Origin: a virus
Taxonomy: Duplodnaviria; Heunggongvirae; Uroviricota; Caudoviricetes
Length of the DNA stretch: 64,000 bases
IMG/VR virus record: IMGVR_UViG_644736364_000008
Reading direction: 5' to 3' (one strand)
Numbering within the stretch: the stretch's first letter is position 1; each line of letters starts with the position of its first letter. The notes beneath the pieces were generated by a model that worked only from the letters and a program-made list of their open reading frames with translations, ran no database searches and was not told the DNA's origin. The position numbers and the translations under genes are program-made. Below, one piece after another: positions 57,813 through 64,000 of the stretch.

Positions 57813-58325
57813 TTACTCAGATTTGAACTTTGGTTCTGGCAAAAGAGGAGGAGTTGAGTCCTCGAATCGTAGCCAGTGCTCCCAGATATCGTGGGATTGT
57901 AATTCCAGAAGACCAATTTGACGTGATGCAACTGCAGTGCCAGCTATAGTTCCTCCTGCATAATCAACCTGGACGGACTTTGACGCTTTCTCAATTAATT
58001 CTGTCCAAGCTTCACTTTCCGCGTTAAAAGAAGCAGTTAATTCCTGCAGACGCTGTGGATCATCCTTGTTGTCTTGTTTCAAACGATTCAGGGCGGCCAC
58101 CGAATACTTATTCTTAACCCAACTAACCTGAGCTAACTGAACTCTCTGACAAGCGTCCATATCAGTAGTTGTTTCCTGAGGCATATCAAAGCAGGAAATA
58201 AAAAAAGTCTCAACACCATCATTTAGACTACTGCTCGGCTGGTTCAAAGCATCAGAAGCATTGGATGCTATCGGTATTATCAGTGCTACCGACAGAATCA
58301 AACGTTTAACATAAATCGCTCCCAT
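57813..58325 (-). CDS. Secreted protein of unknown function (170 aa)
   Basis: N-terminal signal peptide; moderately AT-rich. Confidence 0.55.
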   Translation of the reverse strand: MGAIYVKRLILSVALIIPIASNASDALNQPSSSLNDGVETFFISCFDMPQETTTDMDACQRVQLAQVSWVKNKYSVAALNRLKQDNKDDPQRLQELTASFNAESEAWTELIEKASKSVQVDYAGGTIAGTAVASRQIGLLELQSHDIWEHWLRFEDSTPPLLPEPKFKSE

Positions 58326-58793
58326 TTAATTATCCCCTCTAAGAACAGAGTCATCCAGATTAGCCGAATCCTTGTTGTTGGGGAATAACCAGGCCCACCT
58401 CGCCTGATGTGGCTAAAAGCAGGCACATAACAGCTAAGTATTTTCAACCAGAGAGAATCCTTAGCGTTGTGGTGAATGCGGCTCAGCGCACGCGGGTTAA
58501 GGTTGAGGCTGACAGTCGACCTTCTGTGGATACCCACCCGCCTGGTGTGCAACCTTCGCCAGGCACCGGGAGGCACCCGGCACCACAACTTTATGCTGTG
58601 TGTAGTCCTGGCGGTACCAGCTTGTACCCTTGCTTCCGGCTGGTACCGCTCTTTTTACAAAACAGAGAAGAGCATCACCGGACGACGGGCTCATAACCCA
58701 ATCCACCCGGGCGGCTGCCACCGCAGGTGTTCTTCTCTGTTTTGTGGAGAAACCAACCGACCTTGCAGGGTCGATATGATGAGGAGCAGCAAA

Positions 58794-59156
58794 ATGGCTA
58801 GCGAACGCAGTACCAACGTGCAGGAATTTATCGGGGAGCTGGACGGCGGCGTATTTGAAACCAAAATCGGCGCAGTTCTCAGTGAAGTCGCTTCCGGTGT
58901 GATGAACACGAAAACCAAAGGTAAGGTCTCGCTCAACCTGGAAATCGAACCGTTTGATGAGAACCGTGTGAAAATAAAACACAAACTCTCATATGTTCGT
59001 CCGACTAACCGCGGGAAAATTTCCGAAGAAGACACCACCGAAACGCCGATGTATGTCAATCGCGGTGGTCGCCTGACTATTCTGCAGGAAGACCAGGGAC
59101 AATTACTGACTCTTGCCGGTGAACCTGACGGAAAACTCCGCGCAGCAGGTCATTAA
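58794..59156 (+). CDS. YfdP-like protein (120 aa)
   Basis: SD gaggag upstream of ATG at 58794; the long upstream ORF extension looks non-coding. Confidence 0.5.
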   Translation: MASERSTNVQEFIGELDGGVFETKIGAVLSEVASGVMNTKTKGKVSLNLEIEPFDENRVKIKHKLSYVRPTNRGKISEEDTTETPMYVNRGGRLTILQEDQGQLLTLAGEPDGKLRAAGH

Positions 59157-60173: not shown

Positions 60174-60698
60174 ATGTCATTTATTAAAACTTTTTCCGGG
60201 AAGCATTTTTATTATGACAGGATAAATAAAGACGACATCGTTATTAACGATATCGCGGTTTCTCTTTCAAATATCTGTCGCTTTGCAGGACATCTTTCAC
60301 ATTTCTACAGCGTCGCCCAACATGCGGTGCTTTGCAGCCAACTGGTACCGCAGGAATTTGCTTTTGAAGCGTTAATGCATGATGCAACAGAAGCGTATTG
60401 CCAGGACATCCCGGCGCCACTGAAACGCCTTCTTCCTGACTATAAACGGATGGAAGAAAAAATAGACGCCGTAATCCGTGAGAAATACGGGTTACCCCCG
60501 GTTATGAGTACGCCCGTGAAATATGCCGATCTCATCATGCTGGCAACCGAACGCCGCGATCTCGGGCTTGATGATGGCTCTTTCTGGCCCGTACTGGAAG
60601 GTATCCCGGCAACAGAGATGTTCAAAGTTATTCCACTGTCGCCAGGCCATACCTATGGGATGTTTATGGAACGCTTTAAAGAGTTAACTGAGTCGTAA
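60174..60698 (+). CDS. HD-domain phosphohydrolase (YfdR-like 5'-deoxynucleotidase)
   Basis: H...HD...D pattern (AQHAVL...LMHDATEAY...D); SD ggaga. Confidence 0.6.
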   Translation: MSFIKTFSGKHFYYDRINKDDIVINDIAVSLSNICRFAGHLSHFYSVAQHAVLCSQLVPQEFAFEALMHDATEAYCQDIPAPLKRLLPDYKRMEEKIDAVIREKYGLPPVMSTPVKYADLIMLATERRDLGLDDGSFWPVLEGIPATEMFKVIPLSPGHTYGMFMERFKELTES

Positions 60699-60806
60699 AA
60701 ATCAGCACGTACGAATTCAAACTCTGCCATAAAAGAACATATAAGTAATTTATTAACATATAGATATAGGTTATATTACAAATTGAAAAATTATTGGAGA
60801 GCAACA

Positions 60807-61673
60807 ATGAATCAAAATCCATTCTCATTCTATGACTTTCTTGGATATTTAATACCAGGTGGTTTTTTTATCCTATTAATGTATTTCTGTGGTTTGACAT
60901 TCGATCTAGATATTGTTATTGACTTAAGTGAATTGCTCAGAGGTCAAAGTCAAATCTTTGGCATTTTGAACTACGCTTCAATAGTTATTATATCTTATAT
61001 AGCTGGACATTTTATTTCTATCACGTCAGCATTTTTTATCGAAAAATACATGAATAAAGAATTAGGATATCCTTCCAAATATCTATTTAAAAAATTGATA
61101 GATACCTCAGAAAGCATTTGTAGCCCATCATGCGATGAGAGAAGCGCTGATAAAAAAACAAAAATAAAGAATCGCATAATCAAATGCGTATTATGTCCAA
61201 TAATACTATGGGATTTTATAACACAAAAACTATGTTATTCTCAATCTCTACCATTTCATTTAGCTAATACAACATGGTTAATGATCAAAGAAGGTTATGA
61301 GAAAAAGTTCATAACAAATCGCCAATTATTACAAGATAAAAACGGACTTGATGATGATCTCTTCAGATTGGCATATCATTATGTTTATGAGTTTTCAAAA
61401 CAACATCAAACAAAAATTCAAAACTATGTTGCATTATATGGTTTTTGCAGAAACATATGTTTAATCTTTATAATTTCATTTTGGGTATCAGTTCCAACCT
61501 TTATTTATCGATTATGTACTCATAGTGATTATCTTTATAGTTTACTTTCAATAATGCTTAGCTTTTTCTTCGTCTATGTTTTCTATGTTGGTTTTGTTAA
61601 ATTTTATAGAAGATATACTTTAGAAGTATTAATGGCATTTGCTGTACTTCAAAGTAACGACACTATTCGTTAA
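60807..61673 (+). CDS. AT-rich polytopic membrane protein (288 aa) of unknown function
   Basis: Very AT-rich ORF with several hydrophobic helices; SD ggaga. Confidence 0.6.
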   Translation: MNQNPFSFYDFLGYLIPGGFFILLMYFCGLTFDLDIVIDLSELLRGQSQIFGILNYASIVIISYIAGHFISITSAFFIEKYMNKELGYPSKYLFKKLIDTSESICSPSCDERSADKKTKIKNRIIKCVLCPIILWDFITQKLCYSQSLPFHLANTTWLMIKEGYEKKFITNRQLLQDKNGLDDDLFRLAYHYVYEFSKQHQTKIQNYVALYGFCRNICLIFIISFWVSVPTFIYRLCTHSDYLYSLLSIMLSFFFVYVFYVGFVKFYRRYTLEVLMAFAVLQSNDTIR

Positions 61674-61714
61674 TAATGTTGCTCCCGTGTGCAGACGGGA
61701 TAATGGAGAAACGT

Positions 61715-61921
61715 ATGCTGAACCTCGATTGTGTTCCTATCTCAACTTATTGCAAAGAAACTGGCGAAACTCCTGAAGCAATAAACAAACGTGTACAGCG
61801 CGGTGTTTGGCGTGAAGGTGTTCAGGTTTTAAAGGTTGAAGGCGTTAAGGAGAGGTGGATTGATCTTAGTGAGGTTGCAAAATGGGCCAGACAAAACTGC
61901 TCAAACTACCGCGCGGCGTAA
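61715..61921 (+). CDS. xis: Excisionase (Xis)
   Basis: Small basic protein (VQRGVWREGVQVLKVEGVKERWIDLSEVAKWARQ) overlapping the int start. Confidence 0.6.
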   Translation: MLNLDCVPISTYCKETGETPEAINKRVQRGVWREGVQVLKVEGVKERWIDLSEVAKWARQNCSNYRAA

Positions 61922-63054
61922 CAATCAGGAAACACCACCAGGGAGAAACGATCAATATAACTTTCACCTACAAAGGAGTTAGATGTCGTGAGCCGCTTTC
62001 CAATCTGGAAGTAACACCAAAGAACATTAAATACGCCGAGCGTACACTCGGCGAAATCCATAATAAGATCGAAAGGGGAACATTCATTTATGCAGAATAT
62101 TTTCCCCGTTCTGCTCGTTTGAAAATTTTTGGTAATGCTGCTGCAAGCAAAACGGTAAAGATGTACCTGGACGAATATCTTGAAATCTGCGAAACAAGAA
62201 AACTTTCACCCTCTACGATTGGTGGCTATAAAAAATGCCGTAGTGCGTTAGCCTCACTTCACATTTGCCCTGCAAGTGAATTAACACCAGCAACCCTGAA
62301 AGCGTGGATTCAAAGCCAGAAAACAACCTTAAAAACCATTCGCAACCAGTTATCTTTCCTACGGTCAGCACTTGATGAAGCCGTGACCGATGGGGTACTT
62401 CAAATTAACCCCGTATCGTTAGTAACAGCTTCGCGCTACCAAAGTGATAAGTCAGAAGCAGAAAGCAGCTATGTGGTTGATCCGCTATCACCAGCAGAAG
62501 TTGATGCATTACTAGCAGCAGCCGGAAACAAACAATGGGAAAATCTGTTCCGGTTCGCCATACATACAGGCCTGCGTAGTTCTGAATTATGTGCCCTACG
62601 ATGGCATGATATCGACTTTGTTGGAAAAACAGCCCATGTTCAGAGCGCAAGTGTTGTCGGAGTTATCAAAGGAACAAAGACAAAAGCCGGTACCCGTAAA
62701 GTTGAACTGACTGAAGAAGCAATGTTGGCGTTGATAAACCAGAAGCCATTTACATTCATGAAGGATGCTACTGTCTTTGAAGATCCAAAGACCAATAAAC
62801 CCTGGGCAAGTGCTGATGCAATTAGGAAAAAAGCATGGGTGCCAACATTGCGAAAAGCAGGTATTCGTTACAGAAACCCATATCAAACCAGGCATACATT
62901 CGCCACCAGCCATATCAGCCGGGGAGCAAACCTGTTTTGGCTTGCGGCTCAAATGGGCCATAAAGGGCCTGAAATGTTATTCAGGCACTATGGACAATAC
63001 TTGAAAGAGTATGATGGGAGGGCAAGTATCAAGGATAAAAAGGCTTTATTTTAA
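61882..63054 (+). CDS. int: Tyrosine integrase (lambda Int family)
   Basis: 390 aa; C-terminal TRHTFATSHI...GH...LFRHY catalytic motifs. Confidence 0.9.
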   Translation: MGQTKLLKLPRGVTIRKHHQGETINITFTYKGVRCREPLSNLEVTPKNIKYAERTLGEIHNKIERGTFIYAEYFPRSARLKIFGNAAASKTVKMYLDEYLEICETRKLSPSTIGGYKKCRSALASLHICPASELTPATLKAWIQSQKTTLKTIRNQLSFLRSALDEAVTDGVLQINPVSLVTASRYQSDKSEAESSYVVDPLSPAEVDALLAAAGNKQWENLFRFAIHTGLRSSELCALRWHDIDFVGKTAHVQSASVVGVIKGTKTKAGTRKVELTEEAMLALINQKPFTFMKDATVFEDPKTNKPWASADAIRKKAWVPTLRKAGIRYRNPYQTRHTFATSHISRGANLFWLAAQMGHKGPEMLFRHYGQYLKEYDGRASIKDKKALF

Positions 63055-63663
63055 GTCATTATGCCAATCGTCTACTGTTTGAAACCAAATTTTTAACCTT
63101 TGCATAAAGGTACGATCCTTTTTGGGAGGGTGGTACCTTTGAAAAGAAGTATGTAACGCTTCGATAACTCCCATACAAGCATCAATTACTTCTTGTGCTT
63201 TAACCGGGCGATCGGCATCTGAAAGCTTGTGAGCGACCTCACAATCCAGAGTTGCTTTCTCTAGTACAGATGAGAACACCTCGTCAGGTATATACAGTCC
63301 TCTGCTTTCCAAAATGCAAATCAGTTTGGAAACTTGTTGAGCTTTAGCCAAGATAGTTAACAAGTATGAAACAGAAGCCTTTGTTCTATCCTTTTGCAAC
63401 CTTAACAATCGATGCTTTGATGCTCTAATTTTAGGTTGAGTTGTCTGACTGAGCCAATAGTTAGAAGAAATATCAGAAATTTCAATAACTAACTTTGAAA
63501 TAGCATCAATAATTGATTTCGATTCAGAACGTGTCGCCAGTTTTACAGAATTATTGTACGCAACTCGCCATCCAATGAAAACTAAGCAGACGCTAACTAC
63601 TGTGATACACCACGAATACTGTCCTATTTGTGCTACTAATGACATTGGTTCCGTACTGATCAA
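63046..63663 (-). CDS. Membrane-anchored protein of unknown function (205 aa)
   Basis: N-terminal TM helix; convergent with and overlapping the int 3' end; AT-rich. Confidence 0.55.
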   Translation of the reverse strand: MISTEPMSLVAQIGQYSWCITVVSVCLVFIGWRVAYNNSVKLATRSESKSIIDAISKLVIEISDISSNYWLSQTTQPKIRASKHRLLRLQKDRTKASVSYLLTILAKAQQVSKLICILESRGLYIPDEVFSSVLEKATLDCEVAHKLSDADRPVKAQEVIDACMGVIEALHTSFQRYHPPKKDRTFMQRLKIWFQTVDDWHNDLK

Positions 63664-63673
63664 CTATCGCCTC

Positions 63674-64000
63674 TTATACTCTTTCTGGTTGTGCTAAATC
63701 AATAAATTTATCAATCTGTTCTTTGTAGAACGGAACATCACTTTTTATAATCAAACGTGCTTTAACGTTGGCTTTAGGTATCCCTTCCTTACGGATGAGA
63801 CCTCCAAACGCCTCTTCTAAGAAAGAGGAACCAACACCCAGTGCTATACCGCGAAAATCAACCACAATCTCCTGTTCAGTACCCTTCAGCGCAGGCACCA
63901 AAAACTCTCTACGAAATCTTTCCGCACTGTGTGGGCTATCCGTTGTGTAACGTCCGAAAGGTGTTCTGGAGAACTCCTTCGCTATGACGATATTTCTCAT
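63674..64000 (-). CDS. STAS-like (DUF4325-like) small protein; start at or beyond the window edge
   Basis: EIVVDFRGIALGVGSSFLEEAFGGL resembles the STAS-like fold signature; ATG at 64000 is the last codon in the window. Confidence 0.45.
   Translation of the reverse strand: MRNIVIAKEFSRTPFGRYTTDSPHSAERFRREFLVPALKGTEQEIVVDFRGIALGVGSSFLEEAFGGLIRKEGIPKANVKARLIIKSDVPFYKEQIDKFIDLAQPERV

What the first reader, a model, noticed from the sequence alone, without database searches (positions are those of the whole stretch)
60807..61673. Very AT-rich polytopic membrane protein beside xis-int
This 288-aa protein has multiple hydrophobic helices and unusually low GC, and lies immediately upstream of xis. 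Integrase-proximal membrane proteins frequently mediate superinfection exclusion or abortive infection.
Basis: partly seen in the sequence, partly recalled or inferred. Interest (0 to 1): 0.5.

Follow-up and report, generated by a model that had tools for sequence, protein, structure and literature searches.

The report
Solo Csx27-like prophage membrane protein
The gene is real and encodes a four-helix inner-membrane protein that E. coli prophages carry as an optional extra next to their integrase; it is a distant relative of the CRISPR accessory protein Csx27, and it probably protects the host against other phages, though nobody has tested this.

Summary
Window 60807-61673 (+) is a 288-aa ORF with 28% GC against 49% for the window. 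It has four transmembrane helices and sits directly upstream of xis-int in an E. coli B2 prophage (UTI89, CFT073).

It is not a transporter and matches no known Sie or Abi family. It belongs to a large family with no Pfam model: 942 clusters at 50% identity, across many phyla, all about 280 aa. Profile searches in both directions link this family to Csx27, the 4-TM accessory protein of type VI-B1 CRISPR-Cas (hhalign probability 96.6%). It fails the tests for Csx27 proper.

The family has no conserved partner gene. It travels as a single-gene module in several settings:
- upstream of six unrelated integrases in prophages;
- in the P2 old/tin defence hotspot;
- as an attC-flanked integron cassette;
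- inside type I restriction-modification operons and defence islands.

All conserved residues lie on the cytoplasmic face of the membrane.

The best reading is a stand-alone anti-phage or anti-mobile-element membrane protein (about 50%). The mechanism is inferred, not shown. I rate it a new variant of a known kind, of moderate interest.

The parts
60807..61673 (+). Gene for the 288-aa four-TM inner-membrane protein (WP_001075212.1). It is a solo member of a large Csx27-related family. Predicted topology is N-in/C-in: TM1 about aa 11-32, TM2 50-78, cytoplasmic helical domain 79-206, TM3 207-234, TM4 243-266.
   Evidence: ORF and translation. Hydropathy, loop charge and GC. RefSeq annotation. 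PHROG 12528, unknown function, E=8e-174. AF2 model with pLDDT 89.7, all-helical. Csx27 homology. dN/dS 0.16-0.18.
60699..60806 (+). AT-rich 108-bp spacer between yfdR and the gene, containing the GGAGAG ribosome-binding site at 60796-60801. No convincing sigma-70 promoter was found here.
   Evidence: Sequence. The promoter scan found nothing in this spacer. Homologues in other prophages also have 100-400 bp AT-rich upstream spacers, and some carry a TATAAT.
60174..60698 (+). yfdR-like HD-domain 5'-deoxynucleotidase. It is the conserved left flank of the variable slot.
   Evidence: RefSeq annotation. Weak Pfam YfbR-like/HD_3 hits. This flank is shared by 2968 of 5426 E. coli genomes, while the 288-aa gene is full-length in only 204.
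61676..61921 (+). Excisionase (TorI-like xis). It is the conserved right flank of the slot and starts 3-42 nt after the membrane-protein stop, depending on the start codon used (61676, 61703 or 61715).
   Evidence: PHROG 2917 excisionase, E=8e-45. RefSeq CDS 61715-61921. Sequence.
61882..63054 (+). Tyrosine integrase of 390 aa.
   Evidence: Pfam Arm-DNA-bind_2 E=7.5e-24 and Phage_integrase E=2.3e-16.

Best explanation
The gene encodes a stand-alone inner-membrane protein of the Csx27 superfamily, carried by the prophage as an optional accessory gene (a moron) in the slot between the early-left genes and xis-int.

What is shown:
- It has four TM helices, with both termini and a roughly 130-aa helical domain in the cytoplasm.
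- It is under purifying selection.
- It belongs to a large, patchily distributed, horizontally mobile single-gene family with no obligatory partner.
- All of the family's conserved residues cluster at the cytoplasmic face of the membrane. These are the N-terminal NPFSxYDFLGYxxPG motif; GHxxSxxSSxTIE...GYPS after TM2; YHYxxE..H..K.QNYVALYGFxR before TM3; and KFYRRxxLE after TM4.

What is inferred: the protein benefits the lysogen by excluding other phages or mobile DNA. Its conserved cytoplasmic-face site would bind or process a universal molecule, such as incoming nucleic acid, a nucleotide or a lipid head group. The four-helix membrane core, probably as an oligomer, would then either collapse membrane integrity (abortive infection) or block productive entry of foreign DNA.
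For: Family and homology:
- 593 close hits and 942 clusters at 50% identity, all about 280 aa.
- The PADLOC Csx27 HMM hits 99 of 137 members, best E=2.2e-10.
- None of 5 reversed sequences hits that HMM, against 3 of 5 forward sequences in the same register.
- An HMM of this family finds the small 4-TM ORFs lying beside Cas13b-sized ORFs and type VI-B arrays, with E from 2.9e-10 to 5.5e-4.
- hhalign gives probability 96.6%, E=5.6e-10.

Mobility and solo nature:
- There is no conserved neighbour in 78 genome loci.
- The gene has lower GC than its flanks in 71 of 72 loci.
- In Luteimonas it is a single-gene cassette bounded by attC repeats.

Prophage accessory status:
- A related E. coli prophage with the same flanks carries two small genes in the slot instead.
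- In 45 of 72 viral contigs the gene is followed within two genes by a co-directional integrase. These integrases fall into six clusters below 60% identity.
- A homologue of 50% identity sits in the same place in an Enterobacter prophage.

Defence association:
- A paralogue (WP_000193205) lies between portal gpQ and replication gpA of P2-like prophages. That is the old/tin defence hotspot defined in PMC9122126, whose Table S5 lists this protein.
- Relatives lie inside hsdM-hsdS-[gene]-hsdR operons.
- One lies in an island with MmeI, a DEAD helicase, T5orf172 and HEPN_AbiU2.
- Others lie next to an nSTAND NTPase, PIN and a CapV-like patatin.

Topology and conservation.
Against: - There is no experimental evidence for any function. 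No paper or supplement that I could search mentions WP_001075212.
- No validated Sie, Abi or other defence family matches it.
- Among 135 immediate neighbours in genomes, only about a tenth are recognisable defence or mobile-element genes. Some loci look like ordinary chromosome.
- Csx27 itself is reported to lower Cas13b interference rather than raise it (bioRxiv 10.1101/092577; PMC8209922), so homology to it does not prove a protective role.
- No promoter was found that would show expression in the lysogen.
- Conserved residues are confined to the cytoplasmic half of the helices rather than lining their full length. This fits an interfacial enzyme or ligand site at least as well as a pore.
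Confidence: 0.5

Rival explanations
1. It is a lysogenic-conversion membrane enzyme. The conserved Asp, Glu, His, Ser, Tyr, Arg and Lys residues at the cytoplasmic membrane interface would form an active site that modifies a lipid or a lipid-linked envelope precursor, changing the cell surface of the lysogen.
For: - All invariant polar residues (D10, Y14, H68, S74, E79, H191, H200, K203, R215, K265, E273) sit at the cytoplasmic leaflet or interface, while the outer helix halves and periplasmic loops are unconserved.
- Several Bacteroidales homologues lie at the edge of capsular-polysaccharide loci among glycosyltransferases.
- Very AT-rich integrase-proximal genes in enterobacterial prophages often encode O-antigen modifiers (established knowledge of gtrABC and oac).
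Against: - No Pfam or NCBIfam enzyme family matches, and no fold match was found in PDB.
- In the Bacteroides loci the gene is contiguous with defence-type genes (nSTAND NTPase, PIN, patatin) rather than embedded among the glycosyltransferases.
- A family that is equally at home in Proteobacteria, Bacteroidota, Firmicutes and Chloroflexi would need a universal envelope substrate.
- No partner enzymes co-occur.
Confidence: 0.15
2. It is an immune modulator or counter-defence factor. Like Csx27, which dampens Cas13b interference, it would restrain or neutralise a host membrane-linked defence or toxin, to the benefit of the mobile element that carries it.
For: - It is homologous to Csx27.
- Csx27 is reported to repress Cas13b-mediated interference (bioRxiv 10.1101/092577; PMC8209922; PMC11662929).
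- It is carried by phages, integrons and other mobile elements.
Against: - E. coli has no type VI CRISPR system.
- There is no conserved partner for it to regulate.
- Embedding within host type I RM operons and defence islands and placement in the P2 old/tin slot are typical of defence cargo, not anti-defence cargo. Anti-defence genes are usually early lytic genes.
Confidence: 0.12
3. It serves the phage's own life cycle, for example in lysis timing, DNA entry or exit, or excision control, rather than acting as a host-benefit gene.
For: - It is co-directional and nearly contiguous with xis-int, so it is probably part of the early-left transcript.
- The position upstream of xis-int is conserved across divergent prophages.
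Against: - It is absent from most otherwise similar prophages.
- It is present in non-phage contexts: integron cassettes, RM operons and plain chromosome.
- In a Serratia prophage it sits in the nin-like region instead, and in P2-like phages in the old/tin slot.
Confidence: 0.07
4. It is a spurious or decaying ORF with no function.
For: It has aberrant GC, no annotated function and no detected promoter.
Against: - 288 open codons in 28%-GC DNA have a chance probability near 1e-11 (my arithmetic).
- dN/dS is 0.16-0.18.
- Motifs are near-invariant across phyla.
- AlphaFold gives a confident model, pLDDT 89.7.
Confidence: 0.01

Closest known systems
Csx27, the accessory membrane protein of type VI-B1 CRISPR-Cas, and the wider Csx27 family described computationally by Makarova et al. 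2019 (FEMS Microbiol Lett 366:fnz088). I could not read that paper; I know it only as summarised in PMC8209922 and PMC7642515.
   Same: - Both have four TM helices in two hairpins separated by a cytoplasmic helical region.
- Both share an N-terminal motif: FSLYDF(L/M)(G/S)(Y/F)xxPG.
- Both share a pre-TM3 motif: AY(H/Y)YxE...K...(Y)(G/F)FxRN.
- Both share a post-TM4 (F/W)YR(R/K) motif.
- hhalign probability is 96.6%. The PADLOC and NCBIfam Csx27 HMMs hit many family members in the same register.
   Different: - It scores 14.9 bits against the 65-bit NCBIfam cutoff.
- It is 288 aa against about 206-244 aa, owing to a longer cytoplasmic domain of about 126 aa.
- It has an extra conserved block, GHxxSxxSSxTIE...GYPS, and conserved histidines.
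- It is not next to cas13b or a CRISPR array.
- It lacks the competence, ubiquitin-like or WYL partners said to accompany the Csx27 family.
- It is solo and carried by mobile elements.
Prophage superinfection-exclusion and abortive-infection membrane proteins: P22 SieA and SieB, HK97 gp15, T4 Imm and Sp, and lambda RexB
   Same: These are also small polytopic inner-membrane proteins encoded as non-essential accessory genes of temperate phages. RexB likewise has four TM helices (established knowledge).
   Different: - There is no sequence match to any of them in Pfam, PHROGs or PADLOC.
- RexB needs RexA, whereas this gene has no partner.
- Sie proteins are narrow in host range and fast-evolving. 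This family spans many phyla with near-invariant cytoplasmic motifs.
Cargo of the P2 old/tin (gpA-gpQ) hotspot and other phage or satellite defence hotspots (Rousset et al. 2022, PMC9122126)
   Same: A paralogue of about 42% identity (WP_000193205) is one of the catalogued occupants of that hotspot in E. coli ST131 P2-like prophages. The window gene occupies an analogous variable slot between conserved flanks.
   Different: The arrangement containing the paralogue is not among the systems tested in that paper: neither accession term occurs in its Table S2. The window gene lies in a lambdoid xis-int-proximal slot, not in a P2 hotspot.
Csx28, the type VI-B2 accessory protein, an octameric membrane pore (VanderWal et al. 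2023, as cited in PMC12669027)
   Same: It is a membrane protein attached to a defence system. It offers a precedent for membrane depolarisation as the effector step.
   Different: It is unrelated in sequence. It depends on Cas13b activation, and it has a divergent HEPN domain and fewer TM helices.
MotA/ExbB/TolQ/ZorA-type 4-TM stator proteins
   Same: The gross topology is the same: two N-terminal TM helices, a large cytoplasmic domain, then two further TM helices. These proteins are the recurring weak Foldseek hits.
   Different: The Foldseek E-values are about 1 and TM-scores are below 0.3. There is no Pfam MotA_ExbB hit. No MotB/ExbD/ZorB-like partner gene is present.

Membership tests
Csx27 proper (type VI-B1 CRISPR accessory protein; NCBIfam NF040557 equivalog) | Reaches the curated NCBIfam score cutoff of 65 bits | tested here: not met
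   The window protein scores 14.9 bits, E=0.02, over residues 5-43 only. Of 137 family members, 25 match at E<=0.01 (best E=2e-6).
Csx27 proper (type VI-B1 CRISPR accessory protein; NCBIfam NF040557 equivalog) | Encoded next to cas13b and a type VI-B CRISPR array | tested here: not met
   The neighbours are yfdR, xis and int in a prophage. No conserved neighbour appears in 78 genome loci. In contrast, real VI-B loci show the small 4-TM ORF beside a roughly 1100-aa ORF and the array.
Csx27 superfamily (4-TM membrane proteins; Makarova et al. 2019) | Significant profile-level sequence similarity to Csx27 in both directions | tested here: met
   The PADLOC Csx27 HMM hits 99 of 137 members, best E=2.2e-10. 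The reversed-sequence control gives 0 of 5 hits. The family HMM finds Cas13b-adjacent 4-TM ORFs at E from 2.9e-10 to 5.5e-4. hhalign gives probability 96.6%, E=5.6e-10.
Csx27 superfamily (4-TM membrane proteins; Makarova et al. 2019) | Four predicted transmembrane helices | tested here: met
   Hydropathy segments lie at 11-32, 50-78, 207-234 and 243-266. The AF2 model has long helices at these positions. Loop charges follow the positive-inside rule across the family.
Csx27 superfamily (4-TM membrane proteins; Makarova et al. 2019) | Operon association with natural-competence, ubiquitin-like or WYL-HTH genes. This feature is taken from secondary summaries in PMC8209922 and PMC7642515. | tested here: not met
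   None of these is among the 25 Pfam families shown, of 101 matched in all, for 135 immediate neighbours. There is no recurrent neighbour cluster.
Known superinfection-exclusion families (SieA, SieB, Imm, Sp, Cor, gp15) | Sequence membership in the corresponding Pfam or PHROG families | tested here: not met
   Pfam gives no hit. The only PHROG is 12528, of unknown function.
Known superinfection-exclusion families (SieA, SieB, Imm, Sp, Cor, gp15) | Blocks DNA entry of superinfecting phage without killing the cell | not testable with these tools
   This needs phage challenge and DNA-entry assays.
Known abortive-infection or defence systems (PADLOC-DB v2.0.0) | HMM match to a validated defence protein other than Csx27 | tested here: not met
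   Only Csx27 and tm_4 hit the window protein. A few relatives weakly hit the candidate family PDC-M48A, with E from 2e-4 to 1e-3.
Prophage moron (accessory cargo in a variable slot) | Variable presence between conserved flanks, deviant composition, dispensable for the phage | tested here: met
   The yfdR flank occurs in 2968 of 5426 E. coli genomes, but the gene is full-length in only 204. The same flanks hold two other small genes in strain AVS0753. GC is 28% against 49% for the window.
   Pfam and NCBIfam give no hit for the protein. Across 137 members there are only scattered single sub-threshold hits. PDB sequence and fold searches give nothing significant.
MotA/ExbB/TolQ/ZorA stator-like proteins | MotA_ExbB domain and a MotB/ExbD-type partner gene | tested here: not met
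   There is no Pfam hit. Foldseek gives E about 1 and TM-score below 0.3. No partner gene is present.

The most novel reading that the evidence does not exclude
The protein is a self-contained, single-gene membrane immunity module. It would be the free-living form of the Csx27 fold, in which a conserved cytoplasmic-face site senses or processes incoming foreign nucleic acid, or an infection signal, and the four-helix core executes exclusion. If so, it would define a new, widespread one-gene defence system present in uropathogenic E. coli prophages, P2 hotspots and integron cassettes. It would also give the first functional handle on what Csx27 contributes to type VI-B CRISPR systems.
Probability: 0.35. 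Interest if true: 0.65.

Novelty: new variant of a known kind. Interest (0 to 1): 0.5.

Why it matters
Csx27 has been an unexplained CRISPR accessory protein since 2017. The only proposal for its role, a channel for ssDNA, is computational.

This work finds a much larger, solo, mobile-element-borne branch of the same fold. It is present in well-studied, genetically tractable E. coli strains: UTI89, CFT073, and ST131 through a paralogue. It occupies positions where phages keep anti-phage cargo.

That makes the function of the whole superfamily directly testable with simple plaque, conjugation and membrane-potential assays. If it protects, it adds a compact, roughly 0.9-kb single-gene defence system that current tools do not flag as defence: Pfam has no model, PHROGs calls it unknown function, and PADLOC gives only a weak Csx27-accessory hit. 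If it does not protect, the interfacial conserved site points to an unknown membrane enzyme or regulator spread by phages and integrons.

Tried and rejected
- Pfam, NCBIfam, PHROGs and PADLOC scans of the protein and of 137 relatives gave no transporter, Sie, Abi, holin or enzyme family.
- The longer family members (335-401 aa) have no fused Pfam domain.
- PDB sequence searches with both profiles gave only noise: growth hormone and the IP3 receptor.
- The first AF2 run, with 11 close sequences, was poor at pLDDT 65. It was replaced by the 137-sequence run.
- The search for a conserved partner gene found none. The best neighbour cluster appears in 9 of 78 loci; the member I read is an IntI-like tyrosine recombinase.
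- A strict RYYYAAC...GTTRRRY attC regex found almost nothing. Repeat detection then revealed the Luteimonas attC array.
- The promoter scan of the upstream spacer found nothing convincing.
- Literature: Makarova 2019 and Smargon 2017 (journal version) are not held. No paper mentions WP_001075212. The held, truncated DefensePredictor supplements list neither WP_001075212 nor WP_000193205.
- An exact search for the B. zoohelcum repeat, recalled from memory, found nothing in metagenomes. A degenerate VI-B repeat pattern did work.
- The DUF4760 neighbour of the ST131 paralogue does not match PADLOC's PD-Lambda-6 model or any other PADLOC model. I therefore do not count it as defence evidence.
Full report
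**Observation**

The ORF exists exactly where stated. It runs from ATG 60807 to TAA 61673 on the + strand and encodes 288 aa. A GGAGAG ribosome-binding site lies 5 nt upstream, and a second in-frame TAA follows the stop. RefSeq annotates the identical CDS as the hypothetical protein WP_001075212.1 in E. coli UTI89 and many other B2 strains.

GC is 28.4% against 49.1% for the window, and GC3 is 21%. Hydropathy gives four transmembrane segments at about residues 11-32, 50-78, 207-234 and 243-266. These flank a roughly 130-aa K/R-rich loop. The genes immediately downstream are an excisionase (PHROG 2917, E=8e-45) and a 390-aa tyrosine integrase.

A 288-codon open frame in DNA this AT-rich has a chance probability of about 1e-11 (my arithmetic). 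dN/dS against alleles of 85% and 78% identity is 0.18 and 0.16. The gene is therefore real and under purifying selection.

**What it is not**

Pfam and NCBIfam give no transporter or enzyme family. PHROGs places it in phrog_12528, of unknown function. PADLOC gives no hit to any validated Abi, Sie or other defence protein.

**The family**

A word-indexed search found 593 relatives, all annotated as hypothetical. An exhaustive profile search found 942 clusters at 50% identity, almost all 260-320 aa with full-length matches.

An alignment of 137 diverse members (A2) shows a striking pattern:
- The extreme N-terminus is nearly invariant: (M)xQNPFSxYDFLGYxxPG.
- So is a block at the cytoplasmic end of TM2: GHxxSxxSSxTIExYxxWxxGYPSxYLL.
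- So is a block just before TM3: DxFRxxYHYxxE....H..K.QNYVALYGFxR.
- So is a block just after TM4: FxKFYRRxxLExxMA.
- The periplasmic loops and the outer halves of the helices are not conserved.

Loop charges across the family follow the positive-inside rule for an N-in/C-in topology. Every conserved block therefore sits at the cytoplasmic face of the membrane.

**Relationship to Csx27**

The only recurrent library hit is to Csx27, the small membrane accessory protein of type VI-B1 CRISPR-Cas.
- The window protein hits the PADLOC Csx27 model at E=1.4e-5 over nearly its full length.
- 99 of 137 family members hit it, best E=2.2e-10. In addition, 25 of 137 hit the independent NCBIfam model; the window protein's 14.9 bits is far below that model's 65-bit cutoff.
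- As a composition control I scanned five members and their reversed sequences. Three forward sequences hit Csx27 in the same register (protein residues 6-10 aligned to profile position 4). No reversed sequence did.

For a reciprocal test I retrieved type VI-B arrays from metagenomes with a degenerate repeat pattern. I then searched all ORFs in those loci with an HMM of the present family. The only hits, with E from 2.9e-10 to 5.5e-4, were 206-259-aa four-TM ORFs. In most of these loci the ORF lies directly beside a 1094-1147-aa Cas13b-sized ORF and the array, which is the Csx27 position.

These proteins share the N-terminal FSLYDF(M/L)SFFLPG motif, the AYYYLE..DKI...K.FQSMYFFLRN motif and the FYRxKMV motif. 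Profile-profile comparison gives probability 96.6%, E=5.6e-10.

The family is therefore a genuine, distant relative of Csx27, but it is not Csx27. It is about 60-80 aa longer in the cytoplasmic domain. It has extra conserved histidines and the GH...TIE...GYPS block. It is never next to cas13b in the loci I examined.

According to secondary sources (PMC8209922, PMC7642515), Makarova et al. 2019 described an expansive Csx27 family. They predicted it forms ssDNA channels and linked it to competence, ubiquitin-like and WYL genes. I could not read that paper. None of those partners appears around the present family.

**Genomic behaviour**

The family has no conserved partner. In 78 genome loci from many phyla, the commonest neighbour cluster occurs in only 9 loci; the member I read is an IntI-like tyrosine recombinase. 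The 135 immediate neighbours fall into 101 different Pfam families. The gene is more AT-rich than its flanks in 71 of 72 loci, by 10 points on average. The upstream gene is co-directional in 66 of 71 loci.

It travels as a one-gene module in several kinds of mobile or variable DNA:
- **Prophages.** In 45 of 72 IMG/VR contigs the gene is followed within two genes by a co-directional integrase, in most cases with an excisionase between them. These integrases fall into six clusters below 60% identity, while the membrane protein itself ranges from 100% down to 48% identity. An Enterobacter hormaechei prophage with a different xis-int module shows the same arrangement. A Klebsiella phage, P7641, shows the same gene order. 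In a Serratia prophage the gene sits instead in the nin-like region between DnaB and the Q antiterminator.
- **The slot is variable.** The yfdR flank occurs in 2968 of 5426 complete E. coli genomes, but the gene is full-length in only 204. A related prophage in strain AVS0753, with the same yfdR and xis-int flanks, carries two small unrelated genes in the slot.
- **P2-like prophages.** A paralogue of about 42% identity (WP_000193205, 280 aa; Csx27 HMM E=1.1e-5) lies between portal gpQ and replication gpA in ST131 prophages and in phage vB_EcoM-705R2. Rousset et al. 2022 define exactly this interval as the old/tin defence hotspot. Their Table S5 lists this protein at least 161 times, but it is absent from their table of tested systems.
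- **Integrons.** In Luteimonas colneyensis the gene is a single cassette bounded by two copies of a 16-copy attC repeat. In Psychromonas it is the first gene after a divergent IntI-like integrase.
- **Defence islands.** Relatives lie between hsdS and hsdR of type I RM operons in three phyla. One lies in an island with MmeI, a DEAD helicase, T5orf172, NucS and HEPN_AbiU2. In Bacteroides they lie beside an nSTAND NTPase, PIN, DUF4747 and a CapV-like patatin phospholipase.
- **Ordinary chromosome.** Some loci show no such context. Only about a tenth of immediate neighbours are recognisable defence or mobile-element genes. The association is suggestive, not overwhelming.

**Mechanism**

Shown:
- a four-TM, N-in/C-in inner-membrane protein with a cytoplasmic helical domain;
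- a solo, mobile gene under purifying selection;
- a conserved site at the cytoplasmic membrane interface;
- homology to a CRISPR-associated membrane protein.

Inferred: the protein is kept by prophages, integrons and defence islands because it excludes competing phages or mobile DNA.

The conserved site is nearly identical from Enterobacteria to Bacteroidota, Firmicutes and Chloroflexi. It must therefore recognise something universal, such as nucleic acid entering the cell, a nucleotide, or a lipid head group, rather than a lineage-specific phage or host protein. That, together with the unconserved periplasmic face, argues against a classical receptor- or injection-blocking Sie protein. It favours either an abortive, membrane-compromising effector with a built-in sensor, or interference with DNA at the inner face of the membrane. 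I put about 50% on an anti-phage or anti-mobile-element role overall, and much less on any specific step.

**Rivals**

- An interfacial membrane enzyme for lysogenic conversion, about 15%. The many conserved His, Asp, Glu, Ser, Arg and Lys residues at the interface and the Bacteroides capsule-locus neighbours favour this. The lack of any enzyme-family match and of partner enzymes counts against it.
- An immune modulator or anti-defence factor by analogy with Csx27's reported repression of Cas13b, about 12%.
- A phage life-cycle function, about 7%. This is contradicted by the gene's dispensability and its non-phage contexts.
- A non-functional ORF, about 1%. This is refuted by the conservation data.

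**Novelty and verdict**

The gene is an uncharacterised member of a large family with no Pfam model. The family is a distinct, solo, mobile branch of the computationally described Csx27 superfamily. I found no experimental work on it. I rate it a new variant of a known kind.

Interest is moderate at 0.5. Nothing here overturns expectations about prophage accessory genes. However, the family is widespread and sits in established defence hotspots of tractable pathogenic E. coli. It also offers a direct experimental route to the unexplained function of Csx27.

Noticed in passing
window 63046-64000 (- strand), continuing beyond the window end; UTI89 locus L001 11447-13317: Just past the integrase, on the opposite strand, lies a second cargo block. 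It holds a 199-205-aa protein with one N-terminal TM helix (PHROG 30059, unknown function), a DUF4325 STAS-like protein (Pfam E=6e-14) and, in UTI89, a 303-aa hypothetical protein, before the chromosomal glaH. None hits PADLOC. Related prophages carry quite different genes here, for example one 259-aa protein in strain AVS0753 and other ORF sets in IMG/VR contigs. The int-to-glaH interval therefore looks like a second variable hotspot.
   Followed up: partly
L177 3942-5321 (E. coli ST131 chromosome NZ_OX637964.1); L175 5001-5843 (phage vB_EcoM-705R2): In the P2 old/tin hotspot, the 280-aa paralogue WP_000193205 is preceded 39 bp upstream by a co-directional 165-aa DUF4760 protein. In ST131 an IS421 lies nearby. 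The DUF4760 protein does not hit any PADLOC model, although DUF4760 proteins are labelled PD-Lambda-6-like in the DefensePredictor supplements. These two genes may form a two-gene cassette.
   Followed up: partly
L090 7170-9885 and L089 9001-11875 (Bacteroides metagenome contigs): In two different Bacteroides contexts the family gene is tightly linked to a patatin-like phospholipase. In L090 a CapV-like patatin (PADLOC phospholipase effector, E=1.5e-72) and a 101-aa ORF precede the gene, with a 7-nt overlap. In L089 a 635-aa patatin starts 2 bp after it. This may be a multi-gene variant of the system, at the edge of capsule loci.
   Followed up: partly
L039 1-16804 (Luteimonas colneyensis NZ_JACSQJ010000002.1): This is a sedentary chromosomal integron array with at least 16 copies of a roughly 58-nt attC-type repeat (CCTAACAAnTCATTCAAGCCGAnGCCGCTTCGCGGCnCGGCTTAATTCTGGTGTTAGG). 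The repeats separate small co-directional ORFs, and larger 146-300-nt repeats show that some cassettes are duplicated.
   Followed up: no
window 57813-58325 (- strand): A 170-aa ORF with a signal-peptide-like N-terminus (MGAIYVKRLILSVALIIPIASNA) sits alone on the minus strand, between the LexA-family repressor gene and the yfdP-yfdQ-yfdR genes. It may be another accessory gene.
   Followed up: no
window 58400-58800: This is a local GC-rich patch (up to 55% GC) with long overlapping ORFs on both strands. RefSeq annotates a frameshifted pseudogene here (L001 6870-7180, equal to window 58469-58779).
   Followed up: no
Only ten contigs, representing six distinct proteins, contain a Csx27-like 4-TM ORF detectable with the family HMM. 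This is consistent with the reported inconsistent presence of csx27 in VI-B1 loci.
   Followed up: partly
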